Assembly: GCA_030148865.1 (NCBI GenBank)
Contig: JASBSR010000040.1
Coordinates: forward strand, 62,518 to 126,517
Direction: 5' to 3'
Length of the DNA stretch: 64,000 nt
Origin: Gammaproteobacteria bacterium
Lineage (GTDB): Bacteria > Pseudomonadota > Gammaproteobacteria > SZUA-229
How positions within the stretch are numbered: position 1 is the first letter of the stretch; each line of letters opens with the position of its first letter. Both the position numbers and the translations under genes were made by a program. Of the stretch, positions 1,045 through 55,685 are shown in pieces. The notes beneath the pieces are model-generated. The model had not been told where the DNA came from, made no database searches, and saw nothing but the letters and a program-made list of their open reading frames with translations.

Positions 1045-1053
1045 GAGATAATT

Positions 1054-1356: not shown

Positions 1357-1393
1357 GATATTTTAATTTTATTCTCAACGAGGAGCGCACATC

Positions 1394-1729: not shown

Positions 1730-1744
1730 GCTCTGGTACGACCC

Positions 1745-1775
1745 GAAGGGGGTCACAAGACCCCCTTCTTCATTT
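1745..1775 (+). terminator. GC-rich hairpin followed by a short T tract after dsrC; possible partial terminator or attenuator
   Basis: gaagggggtc-acaa-gacccccttc (10-bp perfect stem) followed by ttcattt, 16 nt after the dsrC stop. Confidence 0.4.
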
Positions 1776-1809
1776 AACACTTAGTAATAGCAGGCGAGAC
1801 ACCTAAACA

Positions 1810-2586: not shown

Positions 2587-2645
2587 AAACACAGATTGGC
2601 CCATTAAAAAAGTTACAACCGGTACTGTGAAACAAGGTTAAAAAC

Positions 2646-4181: not shown

Positions 4182-4240
4182 CACTAAAATTAGTTTTAAC
4201 GCATTACGCTTATAACGGTTGAAGCAACAGGAGAACTGGC

Positions 4241-6208: not shown

Positions 6209-6244
6209 TTCGCAAATCACTAGGCGAGCAATAAGGCGAGAATT

Positions 6245-6709
6245 ATGACCAGGAGTTTTCTGCAACTCACCATCTTTTGCGGCATGTTTCTGCTAATGCT
6301 TTCTGGTAAAGCATTGGCAGAAACGCCGTTTCCAAAGATACATGAACCTGAAGGCGAAGGTGTCAAGTGCGTACAGCCGGAAGATGAAATTCGCAGAAAT
6401 CATATGAAATATATTCTGCACCAGCGTGATAAAACCGTGCACGAAGGTATCCGCACTGAGCGCTACAGCCTGGCAAAATGTATCGACTGCCACGTACAGC
6501 CAGATGAAAACGGCAAGATCGTCGATCACACCAGTGACGAGCATTTCTGTAATGCCTGTCATCAGTATGCCGCAGTGCAAATCGACTGTTTTGAATGCCA
6601 CGCTGATCGCCCGCAAAAATTCATCAAACGTAGCACTGACAAGCAGGCATTGAATCAACAGATGCAGGACATGCTGGCTAAAAAAACCAGCGATGGGAGC
6701 AATGAATAA
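6245..6709 (+). CDS. dsrJ: DsrJ, periplasmic trihaem cytochrome c
   Basis: 154 aa, signal peptide, three CxxCH motifs (CIDCH, CNACH, CFECH). Confidence 0.8.
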   Translation: MTRSFLQLTIFCGMFLLMLSGKALAETPFPKIHEPEGEGVKCVQPEDEIRRNHMKYILHQRDKTVHEGIRTERYSLAKCIDCHVQPDENGKIVDHTSDEHFCNACHQYAAVQIDCFECHADRPQKFIKRSTDKQALNQQMQDMLAKKTSDGSNE

Positions 6710-7452
6710 TGAGCGATTGCGTGAATAATTCAAGACGTGACTTTATTTCGAAAGTCGCACTCGCCGGCACTGTTACCCTCGCCCCCGGACTATTGCTGCA
6801 CACCGCCCAGGCCAAGCCTGATGACCAGGCAGTTTCCAGTAAAACCCGCTGGGGCATACTGATCGACACCAACAAATGCGGCAAAGGCTGCACTTCCTGT
6901 GTTGATGCCTGTAATGAAGAATTCGCCCTCATCGGCAGCATGCCGAATTCTGCGGATACTCAAAAAACTCAATATATTCGCAAGGTCACGCTCAAAGAAA
7001 AAACCACCGGTCATGAACAATCATTACCGTTATTATGCCAGCACTGCGAAAACCCACCGTGTGTTGATGTCTGCCCAACGGGTGCATCGTTTAAACGCGC
7101 TGACGGTATCGTACTGGTCGACAAGCATATCTGTATCGGCTGCCGCTATTGCATGATGGCCTGCCCATACAAAGCACGCTCTTTTGTGCATGAAGAAATC
7201 GTCAACCAGACACTGGCTGCACCACGCGGCAAAGGCACGGTTGAGTCCTGCACCATGTGCGTACATCGCGTTGACAAAGACCGTAACCCTGCCTGTGTCG
7301 AAGCCTGTAATGCAGACAATCACAACGCCATGATCTTTGGCGATATGAATGATCCTGAGAGTGCGCTTTCGGTAGAACTTAAAAACAATGGCGGCAAGCA
7401 AATCCGCGCCGATCTCGGCCTCAACACTGGTGTGCGCTACCAGGGCATCTAG
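6709..7452 (+). CDS. dsrO: DsrO, periplasmic Tat-targeted 4Fe-4S ferredoxin subunit
   Basis: 247 aa. Tat-like N-terminus (SRRDFISKVALAG) and multiple CxxCxxCxxxCP motifs. Start overlaps the dsrJ stop. Confidence 0.8.
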   Translation: MSDCVNNSRRDFISKVALAGTVTLAPGLLLHTAQAKPDDQAVSSKTRWGILIDTNKCGKGCTSCVDACNEEFALIGSMPNSADTQKTQYIRKVTLKEKTTGHEQSLPLLCQHCENPPCVDVCPTGASFKRADGIVLVDKHICIGCRYCMMACPYKARSFVHEEIVNQTLAAPRGKGTVESCTMCVHRVDKDRNPACVEACNADNHNAMIFGDMNDPESALSVELKNNGGKQIRADLGLNTGVRYQGI

Positions 7453-7473
7453 TTTTAAGAGAGAACGTTTTAG

Positions 7474-8676
7474 ATGAAAAAATTCGAATACTCGCAAATT
7501 AATGGCAAGAGCCTGGCGTACTTCGGTCTGCTCGCGGGCCTGGGCTTAATCGCAGTGATTGGTGTGCTTGCCAGCTGGTATATGGAACATAACGGCCACT
7601 ACGTGACTGGCATGAACAACCAGGTGATCTGGGGTACACCGCATATATTTGCCGTATTTTTGATCGTCGCGGCGTCAGGCGCGCTGAATGTGGCTTCGAT
7701 TGCATCTGTGTTCAGCAAAAAAATGTACGAACCGATGGCACGCTTATCCGCGCTGCTGGCCATCGCCCTGCTCGCCGGCGGTCTGGTCATTCTGCTGCTC
7801 GACCTCGGTCGTCCGGACAGACTGATCGTTGCCATGACCTATTACAATTTCAAATCCATCTTTGCCTGGAATATTATTCTGTATACCGGTTTCTTCGCCA
7901 TAGTCGGTACCTACATCTGGATGATGATGGATCACAATATGTACAAATACAAAAAAACCGTCGGCCTGGCGGCTTTTATCTGGCGACTGACACTCACCAC
8001 CGGTACCGGTTCAATTTTTGGTTTTCTGGTCGCGCGTTCCGCCTACGATGCCGCCCTGCTGGCACCGATGTTCATCATCATGTCATTTTCCTTCGGGCTG
8101 GCGATATTTATTCTGGTACTGATGGCCGCCTACAACTGGACAGGACGTGAGCTCGGTGACGTGGTGATTGCCCGCCTGCGTAAATTACTCGGCGTGTTCG
8201 TTGCCGCCGTGCTCTATTTTGTCATTGTTTACCACCTGACCAATCTCTACATTACCCAGCGTCATGGTGTTGAAGAGTTCATTCTATCTTCCGGCGGTAT
8301 TTACACCCAGCTGTTCTGGATCGGACAGGTGCTGATCGGTGGCCTGATTCCGCTGGTGCTGATTTATGCACCCGGTGTCAGCCAGTGTCGCAAGACCCTG
8401 GCCTTTGTCTGCACACTGGTCATTCTCGGCGGTCTCGCCCAGTTGTACGTCCTTATCATCGGTGGTCAGGCCTTCCCGCTGGATATATTCCCCGGCTACG
8501 AGGTCAGTAGTTCATTCTATGACGGTGTCATCGCCAGTTACTCACCTTCGTTACCCGAAGTCCTGCTCGGTCTCGGTGGCATCGCCGTCGCCCTGCTACT
8601 GGTCACCTTTGCGCTCAAAGTGCTGCGTTTTCTGCCACCGTCACTGGCTGATTCAGTCGCGGACCCGCACGCGTAG
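7474..8676 (+). CDS. dsrP: DsrP, NrfD/PsrC-like integral membrane quinone-interacting subunit
   Basis: 400 aa, about 10 TM helices, NrfD-like; follows dsrO. Confidence 0.8.
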   Translation: MKKFEYSQINGKSLAYFGLLAGLGLIAVIGVLASWYMEHNGHYVTGMNNQVIWGTPHIFAVFLIVAASGALNVASIASVFSKKMYEPMARLSALLAIALLAGGLVILLLDLGRPDRLIVAMTYYNFKSIFAWNIILYTGFFAIVGTYIWMMMDHNMYKYKKTVGLAAFIWRLTLTTGTGSIFGFLVARSAYDAALLAPMFIIMSFSFGLAIFILVLMAAYNWTGRELGDVVIARLRKLLGVFVAAVLYFVIVYHLTNLYITQRHGVEEFILSSGGIYTQLFWIGQVLIGGLIPLVLIYAPGVSQCRKTLAFVCTLVILGGLAQLYVLIIGGQAFPLDIFPGYEVSSSFYDGVIASYSPSLPEVLLGLGGIAVALLLVTFALKVLRFLPPSLADSVADPHA

Positions 8677-8688
8677 AAGCAATTAATA

Positions 8689-8799
8689 GTGAATAATGAA
8701 AGGCGACGCTTGCCAATAAACTATGGGCTTGCTTCAGGTCTGGTGTTTTCATTATTCATTGTTCATTATTCATTGCTCTTTTGAGCTGCGGCGCAGCTC
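8689..8799 (+). promoter_or_regulatory. Structured dsrP-dsrN intergenic region: inverted repeat, 14-bp tandem repeat and an RBS-occluding palindrome
   Basis: gtgaataatgaaagg (8689-8703) is the inverse of ttttcattattcatt (8746 onwards). ttcattattcattg occurs twice in tandem (8748-8761 and 8762-8775). Perfect palindrome gagctgcg-gc-gcagctc (8783-8799) abuts the dsrN ATG at 8800. Confidence 0.4.
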
Positions 8800-10188
8800 A
8801 TGTCTCGTCTGTTCATTTCTGCTGGCCACAAGTCTTCTGGCAAAACCACGGTCAGCATCGGCCTGTGCGCCGCCCTGACCGCTGCTGGTAACAGCGTACA
8901 GACCTTCAAAAAAGGCCCTGACTACATCGATCCACACTGGTTAGCCAAAGCCAGTGAGCGCCCGTGTTTTAATCTCGACTTTTACACCATGACACACGAT
9001 GAGATCAAAACCGCGTTCGCCCAGCACTCGGCAACGGCTGATATCAGTCTGATTGAAGGCAACAAGGGGCTCTACGACGGTCTTGATCTCGACGGCAGTA
9101 ACAGCAATGCCGCGCTGGCAATATTGCTGCATACGCCAGTGATACTGGTGCTGGACGCGCGCGGCATGACACGGGGCATCGCTCCGCTGATTCTCGGCTA
9201 CCAGGCATTCGATGCCAATATCAAGATTCGCGGCGTCATTCTCAACCAGCTCGGCGGGTCACGTCATGAAGCCAAACTGCGCAACGTAATCGAACACTAC
9301 ACCGATGTCAGCGTGGTCGGTGCTATTCATAAGGATGCGCGTTTCGATATCGACGAACGTCACCTTGGCCTGGTACCCAGTCACGAAGACCCGGCCTCGG
9401 CAACTAAAATTACTCTGTTGCGCGACGCCATCAGTGAACAGGTGGATCTCGACATGCTCCGGCACATCGCCAACACCGCGCCCGCGCTACCGAACACGAC
9501 CCCTGCCTCGCCGGCGTTTAGCAAAACCCGGCAGGATTTACGCATCGGTGTCGCGCGTAATGCAGCGTTCGGCTTTTATTACCCCGATGATCTGTTCGCG
9601 CTGGAACATGCTGGCGCCGAGCTTGTCGAAATTGACCCAATACGCGACCGCCAGCTACCCGAACTCGATGGCCTGATCATCGGCGGCGGCTTCCCGGAAA
9701 CCCACATGAGCGAATTATCGGCCAACCAGAGTATGCGTAGCGCCATCCACGAGGCGATTGGTGCCGGTCTGCCGGTCTATGCCGAGTGTGGTGGCCTGAT
9801 GTATCTGGCGCGATCGATCGAATGGCAGGGCGAAAACCACGCCATGGTGGGCAGTATCGCCGGGGACATCATCATGGAAGCTCGACCTCAGGGACGCGGC
9901 TACGTCCAGCTCAGCGAAAATACCGTCAGTCTCTGGCCAAACCCGACAAAGTCACAGATCTCGGCGCATGAGTTTCATTACTCGCGTTTTAAAAATCTGG
10001 ACAAAGATGCTAGATTTGCATTCTCCGTCAAACGCGGTACTGGTATCGATGGCAAGCATGATGGCTATATGTATAAGAATCTGCTGGCCTGTTACAGTCA
10101 CCAGCGCAGCACTGGCAGCAATCCATGGACACAACGCTTTGTTGATTTCGTAAGGCAACACAAACACAACACAACTACAGAAACATGA
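8800..10188 (+). CDS. dsrN: DsrN, sirohaem amidase (cobyrinic acid a,c-diamide synthase homolog)
   Basis: 462 aa. CbiA/CobB-like P-loop (GHKSSGKTT) and C-terminal glutamine amidotransferase domain (AECGGLMYL). Confidence 0.8.
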   Translation: MSRLFISAGHKSSGKTTVSIGLCAALTAAGNSVQTFKKGPDYIDPHWLAKASERPCFNLDFYTMTHDEIKTAFAQHSATADISLIEGNKGLYDGLDLDGSNSNAALAILLHTPVILVLDARGMTRGIAPLILGYQAFDANIKIRGVILNQLGGSRHEAKLRNVIEHYTDVSVVGAIHKDARFDIDERHLGLVPSHEDPASATKITLLRDAISEQVDLDMLRHIANTAPALPNTTPASPAFSKTRQDLRIGVARNAAFGFYYPDDLFALEHAGAELVEIDPIRDRQLPELDGLIIGGGFPETHMSELSANQSMRSAIHEAIGAGLPVYAECGGLMYLARSIEWQGENHAMVGSIAGDIIMEARPQGRGYVQLSENTVSLWPNPTKSQISAHEFHYSRFKNLDKDARFAFSVKRGTGIDGKHDGYMYKNLLACYSHQRSTGSNPWTQRFVDFVRQHKHNTTTET

Positions 10189-10499
10189 TTACCATAACAC
10201 CCAGCGCAGCGAGTCAGATTAAACTCTCTGCCCAGCAGAGCAAATCAGAAGGCATGCCACTGCGCATCGCCGCGACCCGAAACAGTGATAACAGCATTCA
10301 TTACGGCATGGGCTTCGATGACAGCAAAGAAGATGATATCAGCGTCACCTGTGAAGACATCGAATTAATCGTCTCGCCGGCGAGCGCTATTTTATTAAAA
10401 GATACGCAACTGGATTTCGTCGAACTCGAGCCGGGGAAATTTCAGTTCATTTTTCTCAACCCAGGTGACCCCAACTACAAACCCCCGGTTGAGCAATAG
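10185..10499 (+). CDS. dsrR: DsrR, IscA/HesB-like protein
   Basis: 104 aa with an A-type carrier fold but lacking the canonical Cys triad, as described for DsrR. Overlaps the dsrN stop. Confidence 0.6.
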   Translation: MITITPSAASQIKLSAQQSKSEGMPLRIAATRNSDNSIHYGMGFDDSKEDDISVTCEDIELIVSPASAILLKDTQLDFVELEPGKFQFIFLNPGDPNYKPPVEQ

Positions 10500-10522
10500 T
10501 CGACTCATCTGAGAGCACGATC

Positions 10523-11701
10523 ATGGGCAAGACGACCAAGGCCAAGGCCAGCGCGAAAATTTCGAGCCCGATCATCGAGTGGAGCCGAGACTCAATTATC
10601 ATTCTGTACGAAGTCATCAGTCTGATTAATTCGGCTGAAAATCAGCAGGAGCTGTTCAATTATTTTCTCAGGCATCTCACCAACCGGCTAAAAGCAAAAG
10701 CCGCCACTCTGCGGCTGATCACCAATGATGACTGGATGGAGCTGGTGGGTAGTTACAAACTTGATGACCCGAGCATCAGCAAAATTCAGCAAACCGCGAT
10801 TGAAGCGCCATTATTCAGCCGCAGTAGTGAACCGATCAATTTAGTCCGGGTAGCTCCCGCCGACGCGCTGCTGGCGGATTCAAGTGACCTGATGATTACC
10901 GTTCCGGTACGCCATCTGGTGCACACTCTGGGCGCGATCAATATTGTCTTCGCGCCCGGCGCTATCGACCTCGACAATGAACTGGCTTCGTTGCTGTTCA
11001 GTGCCGGCCACCATCTGGCGCTGGCGATTGAAAAATACCGCCTGGAAAACCTGACCCGACAAAAACTGGTGCAGGAAGAACGCAATATGCTGGCCAGCGA
11101 GCTACACGACTCACTGGCACAAACCCTGGCCTCATTACGCTTTCAGGTGCGGGTGCTGGATCAGTCCCTGCAGCCCTCGGGTGACTATATGGCAATTAAT
11201 AGCATCGAACAGGTGGAACACGGCCTTGATGAAGCCTATACCGATCTGCGCGAACTCATCGCCCACTGTCGCGAACCCATCGAGCAGCAGGGCCTGCTGC
11301 CCTCGATCGAGCGCGTGGTGGCCAAATTCCGCGAAGAAACCGGGATTCATATCCTGTTACAATGCGAGCATCAGCTGCCGGATATCCCCGTGATAATGGA
11401 AATGAATGTCTACCGCATCGTACAGGAATCGCTGACCAATATTAAAAAACACGCGAATGCCAAAATCGTGCGTATATTACTCGACTGCGATAACGAAGGC
11501 CGCTATCGTGTCCTGGTCGAAAACGATGGCATTGGCTTTGATAAAAAAGCCATTCAGAGCCACGCCGGTCAACATCTTGGCCTGACTATTATGCAGGAGC
11601 GCGCGCACCATTTGGGCGGTAAACTACGCATCGAGAGCGAGCCGGACGAAGGCACGCGGATCGAACTCAAGTTCCAGTACCAGAGAGAGCAGGCAATCTG
11701 A
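10523..11701 (+). CDS. Cytoplasmic sensor histidine kinase, NarX/HisKA_3 type, with a putative N-terminal GAF-like sensor domain
   Basis: 392 aa with no TM segments. H-box ERNMLASELHDSLAQTLASL and HATPase_c region (GLTIMQERAHHLGGKLRIESEPDEGTRIEL). Begins 24 nt after dsrR. Confidence 0.7.
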   Translation: MGKTTKAKASAKISSPIIEWSRDSIIILYEVISLINSAENQQELFNYFLRHLTNRLKAKAATLRLITNDDWMELVGSYKLDDPSISKIQQTAIEAPLFSRSSEPINLVRVAPADALLADSSDLMITVPVRHLVHTLGAINIVFAPGAIDLDNELASLLFSAGHHLALAIEKYRLENLTRQKLVQEERNMLASELHDSLAQTLASLRFQVRVLDQSLQPSGDYMAINSIEQVEHGLDEAYTDLRELIAHCREPIEQQGLLPSIERVVAKFREETGIHILLQCEHQLPDIPVIMEMNVYRIVQESLTNIKKHANAKIVRILLDCDNEGRYRVLVENDGIGFDKKAIQSHAGQHLGLTIMQERAHHLGGKLRIESEPDEGTRIELKFQYQREQAI

Positions 11702-11706
11702 CCATC

Positions 11707-12360
11707 ATGCGAGTCATTATAATCGACGATCACGCCCTGTTCCGGGTCGGCCTCAAAGGTCTGCTCGAACAACGCAACATCGAAGTGATCGGGGTCGCAG
11801 CCGACGGCAATGCCGGCATTAAGCTCGCCGAACTTCTCAGCCCCGATATTATTCTGCTCGACCTGCGCATGCCCGGCATCGGTGGCCTCGAAGTCCTGAA
11901 AACACTGCGCGGACACAATCCGACCATCCCCGTGGTCATGCTCACCACCAGCAATGAAGAATCCGACCTGATTAAATCCTTACGCCTTGGCGCACAGGGC
12001 TATTTGTTAAAAGATATGGAGCCTGATGAACTGGTGAGCGCGCTGCGTGATATCGAAAAAGGCAAGAATGTGGTCGCCCACGACCTCACCGATGCGCTGG
12101 CACGCATGGTTCAGGGTGAAACCACGGTCGATGACGATGCCGGCCCCTTCGCCAGCCTGACTCCGCGTGAGCGCGAAATCCTCTGCCTGCTCGCCGATGG
12201 CCAAAGCAATAAACTGATCGCGCGTAACCTCGGCATCTCCGATGGCACGGTCAAACTTCACGTCAAAGCGATTTTGCGCAAACTCGGGATTCATTCCCGG
12301 GTTGAAGCCGCCGTCATCGCTGTCGAACAGGGCCTGCGTAAAGCTGATACCAGTACCTGA
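11707..12360 (+). CDS. NarL/LuxR-family response regulator
   Basis: 217 aa. REC domain (MRVIIIDDHALFRVGLKGLL...DLRMPG) plus C-terminal LuxR HTH (LTPREREILCLLADGQSNKLIARNLGISDGTVKLH). Start 6 nt after the kinase. Confidence 0.85.
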   Translation: MRVIIIDDHALFRVGLKGLLEQRNIEVIGVAADGNAGIKLAELLSPDIILLDLRMPGIGGLEVLKTLRGHNPTIPVVMLTTSNEESDLIKSLRLGAQGYLLKDMEPDELVSALRDIEKGKNVVAHDLTDALARMVQGETTVDDDAGPFASLTPREREILCLLADGQSNKLIARNLGISDGTVKLHVKAILRKLGIHSRVEAAVIAVEQGLRKADTST

Positions 12361-12370
12361 GCTATCACTC

Positions 12371-12850
12371 ATGAAAACTTTTAAACAGATTGTCGAAGAC
12401 GCACGTCAGCAGGTTAGCGAGCTCATGCCCTGGGATGTGGATGAACTCTGCCGCAGTCACCCTGACACGCTAGTACTCGATATTCGAGAGGAATGCGAAT
12501 TTGCCAGTTTCCATATCGCGAACTCCATGCTGGTGCCTCGCGGCATCCTGGAAACTGCCTGTGAAGCTGAATACGAAGACGCTGTGCCCGAATTAATCAC
12601 TGCCCGTGAACGTGAAATCGTCATCATTTGCCGATCAGGAAATCGCAGCATACTGGCCGCCCAGACCCTGCAGACACTGGGCTACAAAAACGTCAAATCG
12701 ATGCAAACCGGTTTACGCGGCTGGAATGATTATGAATTGCCGCTGATCAACGCCAAGCGCGAAGTGCTCGACCCGGAACAGGTGGATCTGCTACTGGCCA
12801 AAGGTTTTAGTTCTGCAGTGTTGCAAACTGATCGCCGGCTCCAGTCGTAG
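12371..12850 (+). CDS. Single-domain rhodanese-like sulfurtransferase
   Basis: 159 aa from the ATG at 12371; the ORF track begins at an earlier in-frame codon. Active-site loop CRSGNRS in a rhodanese fold. 10 nt after the response regulator. Confidence 0.7.
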   Translation: MKTFKQIVEDARQQVSELMPWDVDELCRSHPDTLVLDIREECEFASFHIANSMLVPRGILETACEAEYEDAVPELITAREREIVIICRSGNRSILAAQTLQTLGYKNVKSMQTGLRGWNDYELPLINAKREVLDPEQVDLLLAKGFSSAVLQTDRRLQS

Positions 12851-20428: not shown

Positions 20429-20520
20429 GCCTAAATAAATAATAAATATTGCCACAGAGGCACAGAGCACGTAGAGAAAAAATCTGCTGTTATAGTTTTT
20501 CAATTCCTCTAGAACGAGCC

Positions 20521-20759
20521 ATTGTGTGGTGTAGTGAATAAGGGGCTTTCCGCTGCGGCTATCTGAGCATTTTTTGCGAGTTGCGAGCTATTCACCCCAT
20601 CCATACACCGCATAGAACCCACTACCACTGAAATATAATTACTCGATAAGGCAAAAACAAAGATTCTTCATTGTCGCTCAGGACAAAAATGCTGGATCCC
20701 CGACACAGCCTTCGGGGATGACGAATGCGGGGCTGGCCTTATTCACTACACTACACAAA
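20521..20759. repeat. Inverted-repeat-flanked element of about 240 bp (MITE-like or structured RNA candidate)
   Basis: ttgtgtggtgtagtgaataaggggc (20521-20545) versus the reverse complement of ggccttattcactacactacacaa (20735-20759), about 22 of 24 matching. An internal hairpin (atccccga...tcggggat) lies between them. Confidence 0.35.
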
Positions 20760-20927
20760 AACAAATGCAGTGGCAGCGGCCTGCTCCTGACCAGCTGAAT
20801 TGCTATATGGCTGGTTTTGCACCTAAAATACGCTCCCTTGTTTTGCGCTGGTGTGAAGCTTCTAAAAGATGCAGCAAACCACACACCGTGATGACCACAT
20901 ATTAACCAGGCATAGAATAGATAATCC

Positions 20928-23456: not shown

Positions 23457-23496
23457 TTCACCCTGTCAATTCGAATTTCACCCTGTCAATTCGAAT
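23457..23496. repeat. Perfect 20-bp direct tandem repeat (two copies) in the divergent promoter region between the ECF sigma gene and the TlpA/DsrE-like genes
   Basis: ttcaccctgtcaattcgaat at 23457-23476 and again at 23477-23496. On the sigma-gene strand each unit contains TTGACA. Confidence 0.6.
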
Positions 23497-23579
23497 ATTT
23501 ATGTGAATATACCAACGCCCTGAAGCGCCTGATATTAACCTCGGACAACCGTGCCCACAAGCCGCAGGCAATCAATAAC

Positions 23580-26664: not shown

Positions 26665-26715
26665 TTGTGAATCTCCCATAACAATAATAATACTCTCCCC
26701 TGCATGTAGTCTCTC

Positions 26716-26741
26716 GCCCCGGCTTGTCCGGGGCTTTTTTT
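26716..26741 (+). terminator. Rho-independent terminator after the porin gene
   Basis: gccccgg-cttgt-ccggggc followed by ttttttt. Confidence 0.7.
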
Positions 26742-26808
26742 GCCTGAAAAACATTACTCAGAATTATTTTTAGTCAGAGTGGCTATTCGGGTAATCAGAA
26801 AAACCGTG

Positions 26809-27075
26809 AGTCCACAAACAACGCAAATGCATGCGAATGAAATAAAAACCATACACCAGCCGCAAACTACACCAATAACGCAAAGGCAAAACCGGGTGAT
26901 AGGCCTTTTGCGAGATTGGCGTAGTTTGCGGCAAATGTTTTGTTTTTTAATGCCGGCGTACTGTCATCTTGAGCCTCGAGCAGCTTTACACACGAAGTGA
27001 AGGATCTCGTACCACAAAGATTCTTCTTCGCAGAAAACGCTTATCAGAATGGCAGATCGAATAAGAAAAAAATGC
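26809..27075. repeat. Intergenic repeat family, copy A (shares two segments with copy B at 55388-55667)
   Basis: Segment S2 gtccacaaacaacgcaaatgcatgcgaatgaaa (26809-26841). Hairpin gccgcaaactacacc...ggcgtagtttgcggc (26868-26932). Segment S1 ctgtcatcttgagc...gtgaaggatctc...gcttatcagaat (26960-27050). Lies between convergent genes. Confidence 0.45.
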
Positions 27076-27095
27076 AGAAAAGTGTTGCTTTTAAG

Positions 27096-33367: not shown

Positions 33368-33943
33368 ATGAAGCGTAGAACCGCACTCAAGTTCATTGGT
33401 TTTGGCGCAGCTGTAGCATTGCGCCCTGAAATGAGCATTGCGGCGACATCCAGTCCTGTATTACGATTCCTGAGGCCACCGGGCGCACTCACAGAAAATG
33501 AATTTCTGCAACGCTGTATTCACTGTGGCCAGTGTGGTGAGGCCTGCCCTAATCGTTGTATTAATTTTTTTGATCTGGAAAACGGCATTGCGTCGAGTGA
33601 CACGCCGTATATCATTCCTCGCGAAAAAGCCTGCATCCTCTGCATGAAATGTGGTGAGGTCTGTCCTACGGGTGCCATTCAAAAGGTTGCTGCCACCATG
33701 GCAGACATCATTAGCAAGGTTCACATGGGACGAGCCGTCGTCGATAGACAATTATGTTTATCGTGGCAGGGTAAAACCTGCGGTGTGTGTTACCGCGCCT
33801 GCAAGCTTCCTGATGTCGCCATTCGTGTCGGCATGCTTGAGCAACCGCATGTCCTCGATCATTGCGTCGGCTGTGGCCTGTGCGAGCGCTCGTGTATTCA
33901 AATACCTCAGGCCATCCGCATCGTACCTGATGTTTCAGCATGA
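33368..33943 (+). CDS. napG: NapG-like Tat-exported four-cluster ferredoxin
   Basis: 191 aa. Tat motif KRRTALKF. Four ferredoxin motifs (CIHCGQCGEACP, CILCMKCGEVCP, CGVCYRAC, CVGCGLCERSC). Confidence 0.8.
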   Translation: MKRRTALKFIGFGAAVALRPEMSIAATSSPVLRFLRPPGALTENEFLQRCIHCGQCGEACPNRCINFFDLENGIASSDTPYIIPREKACILCMKCGEVCPTGAIQKVAATMADIISKVHMGRAVVDRQLCLSWQGKTCGVCYRACKLPDVAIRVGMLEQPHVLDHCVGCGLCERSCIQIPQAIRIVPDVSA

Positions 33944-34926
33944 ACGGGGACAACATCAAACCCTTTTTTCTCTGGAAACATTTAAATAAACTACGTTGGC
34001 TGAGTTTGATCAGCATTTTTACCGTGCTGATTTATTTACCTTATGCGCATCTTTATCAAACCTATGAATCGGCACATGCCTATGACCTACTGGCGGACTC
34101 AGAAAAATTCATCTATGACACGATGGAAACAATCACCTCGCCTTTTATCGATGACCCGATAGAAGATCTCGACGCGATCAAGGGCAACACCTGGTCAGGA
34201 ACATTTTTCGGATTTAAACTGAGCGATCCACTTGCGGTTATCTCGCAGATATTTTCTGGCATGACCATTTACACAGCATTTTTATTGACTGCGGCATTAC
34301 CTGTATTATTAACGTTTGTATTCGGACGTTTTTTCTGTGGCTGGATTTGCCCGGCGACATTTTTATATGAGCTCAACACCAACCTGGCGGCGGGCTTAAG
34401 ACGTGCTGGACTAAAAACAGGCAACCGGCGTTTTGATCGCCGTGCCAAATATCTTGTGCTCACTATTGGCCTGATACTCTCCGCCATCAGTGGCTCAGTG
34501 CTGGCCGCAAACATTTACCCACCAGCGATTATTGGTCGAGAAATTTATTATGCAATCGCCTTAGGCGGATTCGGCACGGGTGCGGTTTTTTTCGTCGCCA
34601 CGCTGATGTTCGACCTACTGGTCGCTCGTCGCGGTTTCTGTCGCTACTTGTGTCCGGGCGGCGCACTGTATTCCATACTCGGGCGTTTCCGCCTGGTTCG
34701 CATCCAGCGTGTTGTCGAAAACTGCAATGACTGCGCCAAGTGCAATGCCATCTGCGAATTTGGACTTGACCCGCTGCGCGATGATTTTGGGCAGGAGTGC
34801 AACAACTGTTCTGCGTGCATAGCTATCTGCCCCACTGACGCCCTCACCTTCAAAATCCGGATGACAGACAGCCATTTTCAGGGCCCGGGCCATCTAGGCC
34901 GGCAATACAGTAAAGCGGCCAGATAA
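33940..34926 (+). CDS. napH: NapH-like membrane quinol dehydrogenase subunit
   Basis: 328 aa with 4 TM helices, FCGWICP and FCRYLCPGGA motifs, and two C-terminal ferredoxin motifs (CNDCAKCNAICEF, CNNCSACIAICP). Overlaps the napG stop. Confidence 0.8.
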   Translation: MNGDNIKPFFLWKHLNKLRWLSLISIFTVLIYLPYAHLYQTYESAHAYDLLADSEKFIYDTMETITSPFIDDPIEDLDAIKGNTWSGTFFGFKLSDPLAVISQIFSGMTIYTAFLLTAALPVLLTFVFGRFFCGWICPATFLYELNTNLAAGLRRAGLKTGNRRFDRRAKYLVLTIGLILSAISGSVLAANIYPPAIIGREIYYAIALGGFGTGAVFFVATLMFDLLVARRGFCRYLCPGGALYSILGRFRLVRIQRVVENCNDCAKCNAICEFGLDPLRDDFGQECNNCSACIAICPTDALTFKIRMTDSHFQGPGHLGRQYSKAAR

Positions 34927-35534
34927 TGCTGCGTCGTAATTTTATTCAGCAAATCGTTTTCAGCACGGGCGTGCTGATGGCATCAACCCTGCCTTACGGT
35001 TTTAGTCGACTGCTGGCACCCGAAGTTAAAGCCGACCCTTCAAGACAGTTAAGACCGCCGGGGGCTTTAAAGAATGACCAGGCTTTTATCGAAGCCTGTA
35101 TCGGCTGTGGCTTATGTGGTGAAGCGTGTCCACCAAAGTGTATCAAGTTTTATCAACGTGATGGCGGTAGTAAGCATAATACGCCATACATTAATCCAGA
35201 GGAGAAAGCCTGTATACTGTGTAACAAGTGCATGGAGGTTTGCCCGACCAAGTCATTAACCCTGATACCCAGAGAAAACATTGACATGGGTATTTCACAG
35301 ATAGACCGACTCGCCTGTTATCCCTGGGTAGACCGTGGAATTTGCGGCGCCTGCGTCAGCATTTGTCCGTTGGGTGAACACGCCATTGGCTTTGAAATGT
35401 GGGGACAGTACCGGCCAACGGTAAAAAGTGGCTGCGTCGGCTGCGGTCTTTGCGTAGAAGTTTGCCCGCACCCCAGTCTACCGATCAGAATAGTCGAGCG
35501 ATCACAGGGCACTGTCATGAGACACCAGATATGA
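34926..35534 (+). CDS. Second NapG/MauM-like Tat ferredoxin (paralog of napG)
   Basis: 202 aa, RRNFI Tat-like motif. LRPPGALKNDQAFIEACIGCGLCGEACP...EKACILCNKCMEVCPT parallels the same positions in napG. Four clusters. Confidence 0.7.
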   Translation: MLRRNFIQQIVFSTGVLMASTLPYGFSRLLAPEVKADPSRQLRPPGALKNDQAFIEACIGCGLCGEACPPKCIKFYQRDGGSKHNTPYINPEEKACILCNKCMEVCPTKSLTLIPRENIDMGISQIDRLACYPWVDRGICGACVSICPLGEHAIGFEMWGQYRPTVKSGCVGCGLCVEVCPHPSLPIRIVERSQGTVMRHQI

Positions 35535-36115
35535 AACTGCTTAAATTGCTTGCCGTATTGCTCGCATGCCTTGTCTGGAGTGAAGCCGGCTTCGCGCATC
35601 ACGTCCTCGGTCGCCCCTCATATAGTCTTGGCGAAGATTCAAACACTCCCCCCGGTATGCAGATTGATACCCAAATCGGTAATTATTTTGTCACCTATAT
35701 GATATTTCCTGCATTTCCAAAAGCAGGCGAACGTGGTCGTGTCAACCTCTATGCCACCCGTCTTGACAACGGGAAGGCTTTGACCGGGCAGGTCGCATTT
35801 AAAGTTCGCGATGATGTGATGTTCGGCGACAACAACGAAGAAGTGCTGGGCACACAATCTCCCGATGACAGTGTTTTTCGTCAGGGTTTTGTTTTTAGCG
35901 GCGATGGCAAATACATTATTACGGCTGAATTTACCGCCGATGGCGAACCCTATAGTATTGATTTTCCCTTGCGCATAGGTCCACCAAATTCAATAGGCCC
36001 GATCGGTTTTGCTGTTGGTGCCATTTTGATTGTTCTGATCGGCGTCAATCTGATACAACGCAAACGCCTGTTGCATACCAAAATTCGGCGTGCTCACGAG
36101 GAAACCTCGCGATGA
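35531..36115 (+). CDS. Periplasmic single-pass membrane protein, possible CopC/YtkA/FixH-like metal-binding fold
   Basis: About 194 aa from the ATG at 35531. Signal peptide cleavable after AGFA would give a mature N-terminus HHVLG (His1, as in CopC-type proteins). C-terminal TM anchor IGPIGFAVGAILIVLIGV followed by basic residues. Confidence 0.4.
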   Translation: MKLLKLLAVLLACLVWSEAGFAHHVLGRPSYSLGEDSNTPPGMQIDTQIGNYFVTYMIFPAFPKAGERGRVNLYATRLDNGKALTGQVAFKVRDDVMFGDNNEEVLGTQSPDDSVFRQGFVFSGDGKYIITAEFTADGEPYSIDFPLRIGPPNSIGPIGFAVGAILIVLIGVNLIQRKRLLHTKIRRAHEETSR

Positions 36116-37644
36116 CGATGACACACCCGGGATTACCCGATTTTTGGGGGCTGATTATCATTAGCCTCATGTTGCTCGGTGTTATCTGGGTGGTATTTTC
36201 CCCACTCCCTGCACAGTTTAATCTCTCTACCTTCAGTCTCGCGCGGCTGCCGCTGCTGGGGCGTGGTTTTCGTAAACTGAGCGCAAGCCGCTGGTTACTG
36301 TTCTCGCTAAAGCTCATTGTTGTTGGGTTTTTTTTATTAATTATCATTGCGGGTCTTTTTGGCACGCCGATAGCGGAGCGCAACATTGCTACCGTACTCA
36401 CCTGGAACCTGTGGTGGTCAGGCCTGGTTTTTTCTATATTTTTCCTGGGCTCTGCATGGTGTGCCGTCTGTCCCTGGGATACGCTGGCACAATGGCTGGT
36501 TAAACGAAAGTTGTGGAAACGTCACCATCAAATCACCAGCCTGAACTTGCGCGTGCCGCGCTGGCTACAGAATGTATGGCCTGCGCTCGCTCTATTTATC
36601 ATACTCACCTGGCTTGAGCTGGGTGTCGGCATCACCAGCAATCCTTACGCCACCGCTGCAGTTTCTTTATTAATGGTTGTGCTCGCGACAATTTCACTCG
36701 CCCTTTTTCAGCGGAAAGCGTTTTGCCGTTACTTTTGTCCAGTCGGACGCACAGTGGGTTATTACTCGCAACTGGCACCTGTTGAACTGCGTCCAATCAA
36801 CCATGATGTATGCCTGAACTGTAAAACCCTGGACTGCTACCACGGCACTGATGAAGTTGAACCCTGTCCAACCTGGCTGGTCATGGGCCGCCTGCAACAA
36901 AACAGTTATTGCACCTCTTGTGGTAACTGCAGCCAGAGTTGTCCGCATGAAAATATCGCCTGGCGTTTACGCTCACCCAGTGTTGAAGCTCTGCACAGCG
37001 CGCGCCCACATTGGGATGAATCCTGGTTTATGATTGGCCTGCTGGCACTCACTGGTTTTCATGGACTCACCATGATGCCATTCTGGGAAATCTGGATGAG
37101 CGACCTGGCTCGTGTTATTGGCGACTCAGGCCGCTTATTATGGAGCTTTTCACTCGGACTGACTGCCAGTGTTGCTGTGATAGCGAGCACCTACGCAATA
37201 CTGGTTGCAATCACAAAAAATGTACTCGGCACCGATTTGCCATTTAAACGAATGTTCTCCAACTTTGCATTTGTTTCATTACCACTTGCCTTTTCCTATC
37301 ACATGGCACACAACCTGAATCATCTAATCCGTGAAGCCGGAAATATTGGCTCAGTATTTCTCAACCCGCTCGGCATTGACACATTACCACTGAGCATGAT
37401 GGAGAAACATCAACGACAGATAGACATGTGGCTCTCGCAGGATGTGATTTTCTCTATCCAGGCGGGTTTAATGATCTTTGGTTTCTGGATTGCACTCCAG
37501 GTGGTACGTTATCGCGGTTTTAAACTTGTCCCCGCCGGCACAAGTTTTGCCAGCCTGCGATTATTCCCCATCCTGATGTTTGCAATTCTGGTAACCGGAT
37601 TCCATCTCTGGTTATTGATGCAACCCATGATCATGAGAATGTAA
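36112..37644 (+). CDS. Polytopic NapH/MauN/CcoG-family membrane polyferredoxin (510 aa, atypical architecture)
   Basis: About 10 TM helices. CAVCPWD and FCRYFCPVG motifs typical of the NapH/CcoG family. Central ferredoxin motifs CLNCKTLDC...CP and CTSCGNCSQSCP, followed by about five further TM helices. Confidence 0.65.
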   Translation: MTMTHPGLPDFWGLIIISLMLLGVIWVVFSPLPAQFNLSTFSLARLPLLGRGFRKLSASRWLLFSLKLIVVGFFLLIIIAGLFGTPIAERNIATVLTWNLWWSGLVFSIFFLGSAWCAVCPWDTLAQWLVKRKLWKRHHQITSLNLRVPRWLQNVWPALALFIILTWLELGVGITSNPYATAAVSLLMVVLATISLALFQRKAFCRYFCPVGRTVGYYSQLAPVELRPINHDVCLNCKTLDCYHGTDEVEPCPTWLVMGRLQQNSYCTSCGNCSQSCPHENIAWRLRSPSVEALHSARPHWDESWFMIGLLALTGFHGLTMMPFWEIWMSDLARVIGDSGRLLWSFSLGLTASVAVIASTYAILVAITKNVLGTDLPFKRMFSNFAFVSLPLAFSYHMAHNLNHLIREAGNIGSVFLNPLGIDTLPLSMMEKHQRQIDMWLSQDVIFSIQAGLMIFGFWIALQVVRYRGFKLVPAGTSFASLRLFPILMFAILVTGFHLWLLMQPMIMRM

Positions 37645-38252
37645 TGGATCGCCGCGCATTTTTTAAAACCACGTTCAATAAAAGCACGAAGACAATCGTG
37701 GATGAAGCCAGCCGACGCGTCAACAAAAAAGCGTCGCGCTGGATTCGACCGCCGTTTGCCATCGATGAGCTCGATTTTTTACTCGCCTGCACTCGCTGCG
37801 GTGATTGTGGTGTGGCCTGTCCACACGAGGTCATATTCGACCTGCCAGCCCGTCTCGGTGCCAGGGTCGCCGGCACTCCGGCGCTGGATTTACTCAACAA
37901 GGGCTGCCATTTATGTAGCGACTGGCCCTGTGTCAACGCCTGTAGCCCCGGCGCTTTAGCGATCAAAATTACCGAGAATGAAAGCGCGAACACTGATACT
38001 CAGCCAGCCTCTGAGCTACCGAGACTGGCGGTCGCAGCGATCGACTCAGTCACCTGCCTGCCCTTCCACGGGCCTGAGTGTGGTGCCTGTATTCCATCCT
38101 GCCCGGTACCTGGCGCACTGTCGCTGGCGGTGACCCGGCCAGTGATTAATTCAGCACTGTGCACAGGCTGCGGCCTGTGTCGGGAAAACTGTATAGTCGA
38201 ACCCGGAGCGATTCGTATCAAATCGTTGTATACTATCAAGGCGCATACATAA
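37644..38252 (+). CDS. Third NapG/MauM-like Tat ferredoxin
   Basis: 202 aa. Tat motif DRRAFFKTT. IRPPFAIDELDFLLACTRCGDCGVACP and three further Cys clusters. Confidence 0.7.
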   Translation: MDRRAFFKTTFNKSTKTIVDEASRRVNKKASRWIRPPFAIDELDFLLACTRCGDCGVACPHEVIFDLPARLGARVAGTPALDLLNKGCHLCSDWPCVNACSPGALAIKITENESANTDTQPASELPRLAVAAIDSVTCLPFHGPECGACIPSCPVPGALSLAVTRPVINSALCTGCGLCRENCIVEPGAIRIKSLYTIKAHT

Positions 38253-55159: not shown

Positions 55160-55387
55160 TGGAGACGAATAAAAATTATCTGCTCCGAAAAAACTATAAA
55201 CCCGCCGCAAATAACGCAAAAAGATATTGGTCGGGTTTTACCTTCGCCTCCTTGGCGCAGCTTGTGGAAAATATTTTGTTTTTTAAGGTAAGCTCACTGT
55301 CAATCCCGAGCAATAGCGAAGGGATCTCATGCTTCAGTGGTGAAAGATTCCTCTTCGCATAAAACGCTCATCAGGATGACAGAATCC

Positions 55388-55667
55388 GTCCTGTCATCCT
55401 GAGCTGCTTTTGTGAAGGATCTCATGCCCTGATGGTCATAAGTTTTTTCTCCCACAGAATGCTTATCAGAATAATAAATCGGATAATCAAAAAATAATTA
55501 GTCCGCAAACAATGCAAATGAATGCGAATCAAAAAATATTAATTATCATGCTATGAAAATGCCAGGTTTACGAACATAAAACCCGACCAATATCTTTTTA
55601 CCTTATTTGTGTCTGGCTTATAATTTTTACTTTTGCTCGCATTCATTTGCATTGGTTGTGGACTCAT
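55388..55667. repeat. Intergenic repeat family, copy B (MITE-like, with about 34-bp inverted repeats)
   Basis: Perfect hairpin tcaggatgacag-aatccgtc-ctgtcatcctga (55383-55414). S1 segment gtgaaggatctc...gcttatcagaat. S2 gtccgcaaacaatgcaaatgaatgcgaatcaaaa (55511-55544) and its inverted copy (55634-55667, about 30 of 34 matching). Confidence 0.45.
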
Positions 55668-55685
55668 GTTTTTCAATATACCGGG

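What the first reader, a model, noticed from the sequence alone, without database searches (positions are those of the whole stretch)
26745..27095. Intergenic repeat family present at two convergent-gene junctions (copy A)
The spacer between the porin gene and moeA (copy A) shares two conserved segments with the spacer between the ArsR-rhodanese gene and the GMC oxidoreductase (copy B, 55388-55667). One is S1, ctgtcatc(c/t)tgagc...gtgaaggatctc...gcttatcagaat. The other is S2, gtcc(a/g)caaacaa(c/t)gcaaatg(c/a)atgcgaat. The two segments are in different order in the two loci. Copy B has S2 as an about 34-bp inverted-repeat pair about 90 bp apart and a perfect 12-bp hairpin at S1. Copy A has an about 15-bp hairpin. 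These look like REP/MITE-type mosaic elements or a family of 3'-UTR-derived small RNAs.
Basis: seen in the sequence. Interest (0 to 1): 0.5.

Follow-up and report, generated by a model that had tools for sequence, protein, structure and literature searches.

The report
REP-type mosaic repeats in gene spacers
The two spacers carry nested copies of short hairpin-forming intergenic repeats of the REP/BIME kind that also occur in many other uncultured bacteria, so this is an ordinary type of bacterial "junk-or-helper" DNA, with one sub-family that I found described in no paper I searched.

Summary
Spacer A (porin/moeA) and spacer B (ArsR-rhodanese/GMC oxidoreductase) share sequence far above chance: local score 73 against 22±2.6 in shuffles.

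It includes a colinear ~215-nt block, X-Y-S1. A third mosaic locus lies at 20430-20760.

- **S1** is a tail-to-tail pair of TGTC-tagged REP-like hairpins, 86-95 nt long. The same unit gives 107 matches in 81 IMG/VR contigs with GC from 37% to 68%. It fits the CGTC/TGTC-tagged REP superfamily of Di Nocera et al. 2013.
- **S2** (and its relatives X/Y) is a 28-37-nt arm built from three tandem ~10-nt units, CGCAAATnAA. It usually occurs as an inverted pair 72-166 nt long around a variable AT-rich core. I found it in about 17-19 unrelated intergenic contexts in MAGs of Thiotrichaceae and other Gammaproteobacteria.

None of the nine doublets I inspected has a target-site duplication, the held DNA carries no transposase, Rfam gives no match, and orientation relative to the flanking genes is not consistent.

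Best reading: a REP/REPIN/BIME-like mosaic of non-autonomous hairpin repeats sitting at gene 3' ends. The small-RNA reading is not supported. S1 is a new member of a known kind. S2 matched no paper in my sequence-string searches but is of the same general kind. Interest is modest.

The parts
26716..26743 (+). Canonical intrinsic terminator of the porin gene. It is not part of the repeat family and marks the left limit of mosaic A.
   Evidence: Terminator scan finds a 7-bp all-GC stem followed by T7. Region 26678-26743 is 91% identical to the porin 3' end of relative L003.
26807..26838 (+). S2 arm, present as a singlet. It consists of three tandem ~10-nt units: CACAAACAA / CGCAAATGCAT / GCGAATG.
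   Evidence: It lies 4 mismatches from the family consensus CCGCAAATAACGCAAATGAACGCGAA.
26844..26947 (.). X/Y long hairpin. The arms (26844-26884 and 26907-26947) are S2-related. An A-run lies on the 5' side and a T-run on the 3' side, on both strands.
   Evidence: Inverted repeat I3 has 41-nt arms at 80% complementarity. Folding gives -45.3 kcal/mol (z = -6.5) on + and -54.7 kcal/mol (z = -9.0) on -. Flank T-runs are 7 of 8 on both strands.
26961..27055 (+). S1 copy A, a tail-to-tail pair of TGTC-tagged REP-like hairpins. The left unit is TGTC + ATCTT...AAGGAT. The right unit is ATTCT (27020-27024)...AGAAT (27046-27050) + GGCAG.
   Evidence: The architecture matches the widespread family found.
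55189..55290 (+). X' (55189-55246) and Y' (55252-55290), the decayed counterpart of the X/Y hairpin of A. X' is also a 58-nt inverted repeat of 55571-55628.
   Evidence: I1 has 58-nt arms at 84% complementarity, and D5 is a direct repeat at 78%. Alignment A1. The local fold is weak, z = -0.3.
55297..55382 (+). S1 copy B1: TGTC(A) + ATCCC-GAGCAATAGCGAA-GGGAT on the left, and GCTCATCAGGATGACAG on the right.
   Evidence: Folding gives -29.5 kcal/mol, z = -3.0.
55371..55402 (.). Head-to-head junction of S1 B1 and S1 B2. This is the perfect 12-bp hairpin (TCAGGATGACAG / CTGTCATCCTGA) with an 8-nt loop.
55391..55472 (+). S1 copy B2. The right end is truncated and lacks the GGCAG/GACAG tag.
55491..55673 (.). 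S2 doublet. The arms are 55491-55527 (+) and 55637-55673 (-). An X-type arm (55571-55628, -) lies in the core.
   Evidence: I4 has 37-nt arms at 86% complementarity, 109 nt apart. Folding gives -55.8 kcal/mol, z = -7.3. The layout is the same as in nine doublets of other genomes.
20449..20481 (+). P-type arm (TGCCACAGAGGCACAGAGCACGTAGAG), a third kind of tandem-unit arm. It belongs to a third mosaic locus.
   Evidence: It is 87-94% identical to copies in L026 (three), L035 (two) and L036, which lie next to S2 arms there.
20693..20723 (-). Canonical CGTC-tagged REP: CGTC-ATCCCCGA-AGGCTGTG-TCGGGGAT-CCA. An S1-like fragment lies beside it at about 20655-20690. The whole is bracketed by the 22-nt inverted repeat 20522-20543 / 20737-20758.
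   Evidence: (I20). The defining features are taken from PMC3733652.

Best explanation
The two spacers, and a third at 20430-20760, are mosaic clusters of non-autonomous, hairpin-forming intergenic repeats of the REP/REPIN/BIME kind. They have two layers.

**Layer 1: long palindromes.** Each arm is 3-4 tandem copies of an 8-11-nt unit. S2 and X/Y use CGCAAATnAA. P uses CACAGAGG. A complete element is an inverted pair with the GTCCGC end outward, 72-166 nt long, around a variable AT-rich core.

**Layer 2: tagged REP hairpins.** S1 is a tail-to-tail heterodimer of TGTC-tagged units with stems ATCCT/AGGAT and ATTCT/AGAAT. These units sit inside or beside the layer-1 palindromes.

**What is shown:**
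- The repeats are real.
- They are dispersed among unrelated spacers and genomes.
- They nest in one another.
- They fold into very stable hairpins.
- They sit between genes, mostly at 3' ends.

**What is inferred:**
- They spread and persist through a hairpin- or single-strand-dependent process driven by a protein encoded elsewhere. For GTAG REPs that protein is a RAYT-type HUH tyrosine transposase. For CGTC/TGTC REPs none is known.
- They are tolerated at convergent junctions, where they may act as 3' hairpins that stop or protect transcripts. This is possible but not demonstrated.
For: **Similarity and shared blocks**
- A/B similarity is far above chance, with a colinear X-Y-S1 block.

**S2 family**
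- S2 arms occur in 13 metagenome loci and 9 MAG loci: Thiotrichaceae, several Gammaproteobacteria, a Pseudomonadota MAG and a Rhodanobacteraceae MAG.
- Fuzzy matching gives 77 hits in 440 kb (including in-frame matches inside genes) against 0.2 in shuffles.
- The contexts are unrelated housekeeping spacers: ribD, mrp/dcd, folA/thyA, mlaA, ilvE, rlmE/yhbY, apbE and others.
- Nine of nine doublets have the same polarity and a variable core.
- Orthologous spacers in related species keep the arms while the sequence between them changes. The arm type can even switch between P, Q and S2.

**Nesting**
- REP units lie inside the palindromes in L017, L026, L035 and L056. The same is reported for Halothiobacillus and Anabaena REP dimers (PMC3733652).

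**S1 family**
- S1 has the TGTC tag and an AT-initiated stem.
- The pattern gives 107 matches in 81 IMG/VR contigs, where I estimate under one is expected by chance.
- 36 of 88 distinct units have an inverted partner. The median element is 97 nt, and the partner mostly uses the ATTCT/AGAAT stem, as in the window.

**Structure and assembly**
- Hairpins are strong, with z from -6.5 to -9.
- Contigs of the closest relative break at exactly these spacers (L002, L057).
Against: - No transposase was found in any held sequence.
- Copy number in the source genome is unknown. Only 64 kb is available, and the exact-pattern scans give just 1-2 S2 hits per MAG.
- S2 arms are not themselves palindromes and carry no GTAG or CGTC tag, so they fail the strict REP definition.
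- Arm identity within a doublet (0.85) is about the same as between doublets (0.82). There is therefore no hairpin-specific covariation.
- The S2-X-Y module next to moeA in L003 may be an orthologous, inverted copy rather than an independent insertion.
- No clean filled-versus-empty site comparison could be made, because synteny differs in the relatives.
Confidence: 0.8

Rival explanations
1. The hairpins are mainly functional bidirectional transcription terminators or mRNA 3'-end protectors for the convergent gene pairs. On this view they are kept by selection rather than spread by mobility.
For: - The X/Y hairpin and the S2 doublet are very stable and have an A-run upstream and a T-run downstream on both strands.
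- moeA and the GMC gene have no other terminator-like site.
- In L003 the X-Y hairpin directly follows moeA and is followed by TTTTTATTTT.
- In phage-like contig L096, eight S1-like units lie 30-40 nt after gene ends, all in gene orientation.
Against: - The porin already has a canonical terminator upstream of the mosaic.
- The same arms occur between divergent genes (L043) and upstream of genes (L044, L035).
- The stems are far longer than terminator stems, and the T-runs are often 4-8 nt away from the stem.
- A terminator role would not explain why the same 26-nt arm sequence recurs in unrelated spacers of different genomes.
Confidence: 0.3
2. The S2 doublets are classical MITEs, meaning deletion derivatives of a DDE-type insertion sequence with about 30-nt terminal inverted repeats.
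For: They have terminal inverted repeats of 28-37 nt with fixed polarity, a size of 72-166 nt, and intergenic dispersal.
Against: - No direct repeats flank the nine doublets inspected.
- The cores are unrelated in sequence and length.
- No arm pair separated by 0.5-3 kb, and no transposase, was found in about 500 kb of held loci.
- Each arm is itself a tandem array, and unit number varies between strains: two versus three CACAGATGAA units in L018 versus L036.
Confidence: 0.12
3. The arms are arrays of binding sites for a DNA-binding protein such as a nucleoid or partition-type factor. The units would be read about every 10 bp on one face of the helix.
For: - In S2 the CGC triplets are exactly 10 nt apart (positions 2, 12, 22).
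- Arms are conserved across genomes at about 82% or more while the cores are free.
- Arm identity within a doublet is no higher than between doublets, so conservation is not explained by base-pairing alone.
Against: - Sister arm types P and Q have 8-9-nt units, so helical phasing is not general.
- No candidate protein is linked to the sites.
- The conservation figures are inflated, because the loci were found with a pattern that fixes 19 positions.
Confidence: 0.1
4. The modules encode small RNAs, either derived from 3' UTRs or independently transcribed.
For: The location is downstream of genes, the hairpins are strong, and an A-rich single strand is available in the S2 arms.
Against: - No Rfam family matches at gathering score. 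The relaxed search gives only plant miRNA-precursor and other generic hairpin models, far below threshold.
- Orientation relative to neighbouring genes is not consistent.
- The interior is not conserved.
- The promoter scan finds nothing above background.
Confidence: 0.06
5. The similarity is a local duplication or chance resemblance confined to the two loci.
For: Only two full mosaic loci were found by BLAST in the 64-kb window.
Against: The shuffle z-score is 19. Copies also occur in many other genomes and contexts.
Confidence: 0.01

Closest known systems
CGTC/TGTC-tagged REPs (Di Nocera, De Gregorio & Rocco 2013, PMC3733652; includes Neisseria dRS3 and Rickettsia RPE-4/6)
   Same: - S1 units start with TGTC, followed by a stem that begins with AT.
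- The unit at 20723-20693 reads CGTC + 8-bp stem + CCA tail.
- The units form head-to-head and tail-to-tail dimers, including heterodimers with different stems.
- They lie downstream of ORFs between convergent genes, cluster in mosaics, and sit inside longer palindromes.
- No linked transposase is found.
   Different: - S1 stems have only 5 uninterrupted base pairs, and loops are 13-33 nt rather than 4-5.
- S1 tails read CTC, not CCA.
- The family consensus figures of that paper could not be read, so assignment to CGTC-1 to CGTC-4 is open.
REPINs mobilised by RAYTs (Bertels & Rainey 2011, PMC3116915)
   Same: - Two inverted repeat units surround a less conserved spacer and fold into one long hairpin.
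- Singlets look like decayed doublets.
- The location is intergenic.
- The elements persist at orthologous sites across species.
   Different: - The S2 unit is not a palindrome and has no GTAG tag.
- No RAYT was seen.
- Copy number is unknown.
BIMEs of Escherichia coli (bacterial interspersed mosaic elements)
   Same: Several short motif types are combined in different orders and orientations in spacers at gene 3' ends.
   Different: The motif sequences are unrelated. Binding of IHF, gyrase or Pol I could not be tested.
Short tandem intergenic repeats of cyanobacteria and Beggiatoaceae (STRR heptamers from my own knowledge; TAACTGA sets, MacGregor 2015, PMC4679880)
   Same: Short units are repeated 2-6 times in tandem in intergenic DNA of sulfur-oxidising Gammaproteobacteria, and copy number varies between strains.
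   Different: Those are 7-mers in direct arrays just upstream of start codons. Here the units are 8-11 nt, are arranged as inverted arm pairs, and lie mostly at 3' ends. The sequences are not mentioned in that paper.
Bacterial MITEs (Correia, ERIC, Nezha; Thiomargarita MITEs, Flood 2016, PMC4853749)
   Same: They are small, have terminal inverted repeats, fold into hairpins and are dispersed.
   Different: There is no target duplication, no conserved interior and no parent IS.

Membership tests
CGTC/TGTC-tagged REP superfamily (PMC3733652) | Unpaired terminal tag CGTC, with TGTC or CCTC as accepted variants | tested here: met
   TGTC at 26962-26965, 55298-55301 and 55392-55395. CGTC at 20723-20720 on the - strand. 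Definition. S2, X and Y have no such tag.
CGTC/TGTC-tagged REP superfamily (PMC3733652) | Stem of 8-9 bp beginning with A-T, T-A pairs; loop of 4-5 nt; short tail, mostly CCA | tested here: inconclusive
   All stems begin with AT. The unit at 20693-20723 has an 8-bp stem and a CCA tail but an 8-nt loop. S1 units have 5 continuous pairs (ATCCT/AGGAT, ATCCC/GGGAT, ATTCT/AGAAT), loops of 13-33 nt and a CTC tail.
CGTC/TGTC-tagged REP superfamily (PMC3733652) | Dimer organisation (head-to-head or tail-to-tail, homo- or heterodimers) and extragenic position downstream of ORFs | tested here: met
   S1 is a tail-to-tail heterodimer. B1/B2 form a head-to-head junction. All copies are intergenic at convergent junctions. 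36 of 88 related units in IMG/VR have an inverted partner.
CGTC/TGTC-tagged REP superfamily (PMC3733652) | High copy number within a genome | not testable with these tools
   Only 64 kb of the source genome is available, holding 3 S1 copies, 1 fragment and 1 CGTC REP. Up to 8 copies per 14 kb occur in contig L096.
REPIN-RAYT system | Two inverted REP units separated by a spacer, folding as one hairpin | tested here: met
   The S2 doublet at 55491-55673 folds at -55.8 kcal/mol, z = -7.3. Nine doublets share the same polarity. S1 dimers also fit.
REPIN-RAYT system | The REP unit is itself a short imperfect palindrome with a GTAG head | tested here: not met
   The S2 arm CCGCAAATAACGCAAATGAACGCGAA is a tandem array, not a palindrome, and has no GTAG. 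True GTAG REPs do occur beside S2 in L026 and L035.
REPIN-RAYT system | A single-copy RAYT (HUH Y1 transposase) gene flanked by the same repeats | not testable with these tools
   No hit in the window or in about 1.2 Mb of held loci, using memory-typed RAYT and IS200 queries. Whole genomes could not be searched.
MITE (DDE-transposon derivative) | Terminal inverted repeats | tested here: met
   28-37-nt arms.
MITE (DDE-transposon derivative) | Target-site duplication flanking the element | tested here: not met
   The flanks of the doublets show no direct repeats, only AT-rich sequence that partly extends the inverted repeat (TTAGTCC...GGACTAA).
MITE (DDE-transposon derivative) | Conserved interior and a parent IS with the same ends | tested here: not met
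   Cores differ in sequence and in length, 20-110 nt. No arm pair is spaced 0.5-3 kb apart.
Intrinsic (bidirectional) terminator | Short GC-rich stem immediately followed by a U-tract | tested here: inconclusive
   The canonical scan finds only the porin terminator and the S1 head-to-head junction. The long hairpins have T-runs within 20 nt on both strands.
Small RNA gene / Rfam family | Match to a curated covariance model, or strand-specific conservation with a promoter and terminator | tested here: not met
   No hits at gathering score. Only generic hairpin models appear below threshold. Orientations relative to genes are mixed.

The most novel reading that the evidence does not exclude
The S2/X/P/Q/R arms may form a so-far undescribed superfamily of palindromic elements.

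- Their arms are short tandem arrays of 8-11-nt units of the form C-R-C-A-R-A-K-n-n.
- They are conserved almost base for base across different gammaproteobacterial families.
- A near-identical arm, GTCCGCAAATGACGCAAAT..., occurs in Bacteroidales-like contigs.
- They serve as preferred landing pads, or scaffolds, for tagged REPs.

That would imply a dedicated and still unknown protein that recognises the unit array: either a new kind of hairpin or single-strand transposase, or a chromosome-organising factor.
Probability: 0.2. Interest if true: 0.55.

Novelty: new member of a known kind. Interest (0 to 1): 0.3.

Why it matters
For annotation, these spacers should be labelled as REP-type repeat mosaics, not as small-RNA genes. 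The repeats also explain why short-read contigs of the closest relatives break at exactly these junctions.

For biology, the record adds two things:
- a sulfur-oxidiser lineage to the hosts of TGTC/CGTC REPs, whose mobilising enzyme is still unknown;
- a clean, searchable consensus for a companion family, (TA)GTCCGCAAAnAACGCAAATGAACGCGAA, an inverted pair with a variable core.

That consensus could be used to look for the protein that recognises the arms. It could also be used to test whether tagged REPs preferentially insert into such palindromes.

Tried and rejected
1. **Strict S2 scan.** The first genome-contig scan used a stricter S2 pattern and found nothing. The source species is evidently not among the GTDB representatives.
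2. **Reaching more of the source genome.** The exact MoeA protein is on a 223-kb NCBI contig. Only an 8.5-kb Logan contig identical to the window could be fetched.
3. **Empty-site comparison.** Relatives with MoeA at 77-84% identity or GMC at 82-89% identity have different neighbours, or their contigs end at the spacer. No clean filled/empty pair was obtained.
4. **RAYT/IS200 search.** This negative is weak.
5. **Covariation between S2 arms.** The variable position 8 agrees between partner arms in 5 of 6 doublets. It also agrees among all three S2 copies of the window, so it is lineage-specific rather than hairpin-specific. Arm identity within doublets is about equal to identity between doublets.
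6. **Helical-phasing idea.** It holds for S2 and R (10-nt units) but not for P and Q (8-9 nt).
7. **Literature searches by sequence string.** These returned nothing relevant. The Thiomargarita MITE paper and the TAACTGA repeat paper describe other elements.
8. **S2 in viral contigs.** No hits.
9. **Coding potential of spacer ORFs.** The 67-aa ORF at 55159-55362 has no Pfam hit. The A/B alignment has gaps of 10 and 7 nt, which break any reading frame.

Full report
**1. What is in the sequence**

The window has 49.7% GC. It comes from an uncultured gammaproteobacterium. Its MoeA and GMC proteins are identical to proteins on a 223-kb NCBI MAG contig and on Logan contigs. The neighbouring genes include DsrE, nirS-type cytochrome cd1 and many ferredoxins.

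Spacer A (26665-27095) lies between a Porin_O_P gene (+) and moeA (-). Spacer B (55160-55685) lies between an ArsR-rhodanese gene (+) and a GMC oxidoreductase gene (-).

**2. Is it more than chance?**

Yes. The best local alignment of A against B scores 73. Three hundred dinucleotide-preserving shuffles give 22.2±2.6 (maximum 34). A or B against eight other spacers of the window gives 17-26.

MAFFT shows a colinear block of about 215 nt, X-Y-S1, at 26840-27062 and 55186-55392. The shared material is therefore larger than "two segments".

**3. Anatomy**

Spacer A, left to right:
- porin terminator, 26716-26743;
- S2 singlet, 26807-26838;
- X/Y hairpin, 26844-26947, with 41-nt arms. It folds at -45 kcal/mol on + and -55 kcal/mol on -, z = -6.5 and -9;
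- S1, 26961-27055.

Spacer B, left to right:
- X' 55189-55246 and Y' 55252-55290;
- S1 55297-55382 and S1 55391-55472.
- an S2 doublet, 55491-55527 and 55637-55673. Its arms are 37 nt, 86% complementary and 109 nt apart. It folds at -55.8 kcal/mol, z = -7.3. An inverted X copy (55571-55628) lies in its core and pairs with X' over 58 nt at 84%.

A third mosaic lies at 20430-20760. It holds:
- a P-type arm (20449-20481);
- an S1-like fragment;
- a textbook CGTC REP on the minus strand, 20723-20693: CGTC-ATCCCCGA-AGGCTGTG-TCGGGGAT-CCA;
- a 22-nt inverted pair, 20522-20543 / 20737-20758.

No other spacer of the window carries these modules.

**4. S2 elsewhere**

A 19-base degenerate S2 pattern gave 34 metagenome loci and 17 GTDB genome loci. 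About a third to a half of them are real family members. The rest are in-frame matches inside conserved genes.

The real members come from MAGs labelled Thiotrichaceae, Gammaproteobacteria (four MAGs), Pseudomonadota and Rhodanobacteraceae. A fuzzy search with up to 7 mismatches finds 77 hits in 440 kb (in-frame gene matches included), against 0.2 per shuffle.

The elements lie in about 17-19 unrelated spacers next to housekeeping genes: ribD, mrp/dcd, folA/thyA, mlaA, ilvE, rlmE/yhbY, apbE, an SLT gene and others. Gene arrangements are convergent, tandem and, in L043, divergent.

All nine doublets examined have the same polarity, with the GTCCGC end outward. They span 72-166 nt and have AT-rich cores unrelated in sequence. 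No direct repeats flank them.

The arm is three tandem ~10-nt units (CGCAAATnAA). Sister arm types exist with other units:
- R: CACAGATGAA
- P: CACAGAGG
- Q: CGCAGAGGA or CGCAAAGA

These types nest in a fixed order. Examples are R-S2-core-S2-R in L055 and L056, and P-S2 in L026 and L035. Unit number varies between strains, two versus three R units in L018 versus L036.

In the orthologous mrp-dcd spacer of three species, the arms persist while the interior and even the arm type change.

Arm identity within doublets (0.85) is about the same as between doublets (0.82). The conservation is therefore not explained by pairing alone. These figures are inflated because the loci were found with a pattern that fixes 19 positions.

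**5. S1 elsewhere**

S1 is a pair of hairpins with their tags facing outward. The left unit is TGTC + ATCCT...AGGAT. The right unit, read on the other strand, is a tag + ATTCT...AGAAT.

The pattern CTGTCATCYTGAGC-N5-35-GAAGGATC gives 107 matches in 81 IMG/VR contigs with GC from 37% to 68%. I estimate fewer than one match is expected by chance.

Of 88 distinct units, 36 have an inverted partner ending in CTCAG(A/G)ATGACA within 160 nt. The median element length is 97 nt, and the partner mostly uses the ATTCT/AGAAT stem, the same heterodimer as in the window. In contig L096, eight copies lie 30-40 nt after gene ends, all in gene orientation. A similar dimer sits inside a P-type palindrome in MAG locus L056.

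**6. Comparison with known families**

Di Nocera et al. 2013 define CGTC REPs by four features:
- a terminal CGTC tag, often changed to TGTC;
- a stem of 8-9 bp starting with A-T pairs;
- loops of 4-5 nt;
- a CCA tail.

They also report dimers (including heterodimers), location downstream of ORFs between convergent or unidirectional genes, insertion of REP dimers inside longer palindromes (Halothiobacillus, Anabaena), mosaic clusters (Neisseria), and no dedicated transposase.

S1 meets the tag, the AT start, the dimer organisation and the location. It has shorter continuous stems and larger loops. The unit at 20693-20723 meets everything except loop length.

S2 resembles REPINs in topology only. 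The unit is not a palindrome, has no GTAG, and no RAYT was seen (both weak). It fails the MITE tests for target duplication and conserved core.

Rfam has nothing at gathering score. The relaxed search returns only plant miRNA-precursor and other generic hairpin models far below threshold. Searches of the paper library by sequence string found no description of S1 or S2.

**7. How it most likely works**

Shown:
- these are dispersed, nested, strongly folding intergenic repeats;
- they are shared by many genomes.

Inferred:
- they are non-autonomous elements copied or maintained through their hairpin or single-stranded form by a protein encoded elsewhere. RAYT-type HUH enzymes do this for GTAG REPs. 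The enzyme for CGTC/TGTC REPs and for S2 is unknown;
- tagged REPs prefer to land in or beside the tandem-unit palindromes;
- the clusters survive at gene 3' ends because insertions there are harmless.

A cis role as bidirectional terminators or 3' protectors is plausible for the X/Y hairpin and the S2 doublet. Both have A-runs and T-runs on their flanks, and moeA and GMC have no other terminator. This role is not demonstrated, and it cannot explain copies in divergent or upstream positions.

**8. Relation to the moeA locus of a relative**

In L003 (MoeA 77% identical), an S2-X-Y module directly follows moeA. Relative to moeA it is inverted compared with the window. This may be an orthologous element flipped through its own palindrome, or an independent copy. 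The data do not decide.

Relatives with GMC at 82-84% identity (L058, L060) have no such elements in 12-21 kb. Contigs of the closest relative (sample SRR24974057) end 207 nt after moeA and 10 nt after the GMC stop, as expected where a repeat breaks an assembly.

**9. Verdict**

The REP-type mosaic reading is supported. The MITE reading in the strict sense and the small-RNA reading are not.

S1 is a new member of a known and widespread kind. S2 is an apparently undescribed family of the same general kind, and its tandem-unit arms are its one unusual feature. Interest is modest.

Noticed in passing
window 26678-26743 and L003 14058-14123: The 66 nt after the porin stop codon, including its terminator, are 91% identical between the window and a relative whose MoeA is only 77% identical at the protein level. 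That is unusually high for non-coding DNA. It could mark a conserved 3'-UTR element or a small RNA of the porin gene.
   Followed up: partly
window 20430-20760: This is a third mosaic spacer, lying between two same-strand genes. It holds a P-type arm, an S1-like fragment, a canonical CGTC REP (20723-20693, minus strand) and a 22-nt inverted pair at 95% complementarity (20522-20543 / 20737-20758) enclosing them.
   Followed up: partly
window 23458-23499: A perfect tandem direct repeat of a 21-nt unit (attcaccctgtcaattcgaat, two copies) lies in the 849-nt spacer upstream of the DsrE-like genes. It may be a regulator-binding site.
   Followed up: no
L033 620-1060 and 3880-3965; L025 923-948 and 2619-2644: AT-rich contigs carry S2-like arms (GTCCGCAAATGACGCAAATTAAACGAAT) paired with CCGCTAATT-type arms, several per contig. 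These contigs also carry a gene found in Bacteroidales and Mariniphaga MAGs. This suggests the arm family, or a look-alike, crosses phyla.
   Followed up: partly
L035 1180-1578: A unit of about 270 nt is duplicated in tandem downstream of mlaA. It holds a P arm, an S2-variant doublet and CTAC/GTAG-tagged palindromic sequence. Upstream of mlaA, a GTAG REP dimer is nested inside R- and S2-type arms.
   Followed up: no
L096 (IMG/VR contig) 710-12643: Eight S1-like units lie in 14 kb, each 30-40 nt after the end of a plus-strand ORF and all in the same orientation. This hints at an RNA-level role, or at strand-specific insertion, for this REP family in a phage-like genome.
   Followed up: partly
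L002 11231-11437; L057 2037-2047: In the closest relative (sample SRR24974057), contigs stop 207 nt after moeA and 10 nt after the GMC stop. The first of these ends inside a diverged S2/R-like inverted pair (CCGCAGATGAACACGGATGAACGCAGAT ... AGATGAACGCGAATGTAA). Breaks like these are typical where repeats interrupt an assembly.
   Followed up: partly
window 33514-37824: The largest direct-repeat family of the window (five copies of about 38 nt) is the coding sequence of CxxCxxCxxxCP ferredoxin motifs in a cluster of Fer4 genes. It is not a non-coding repeat.
   Followed up: no
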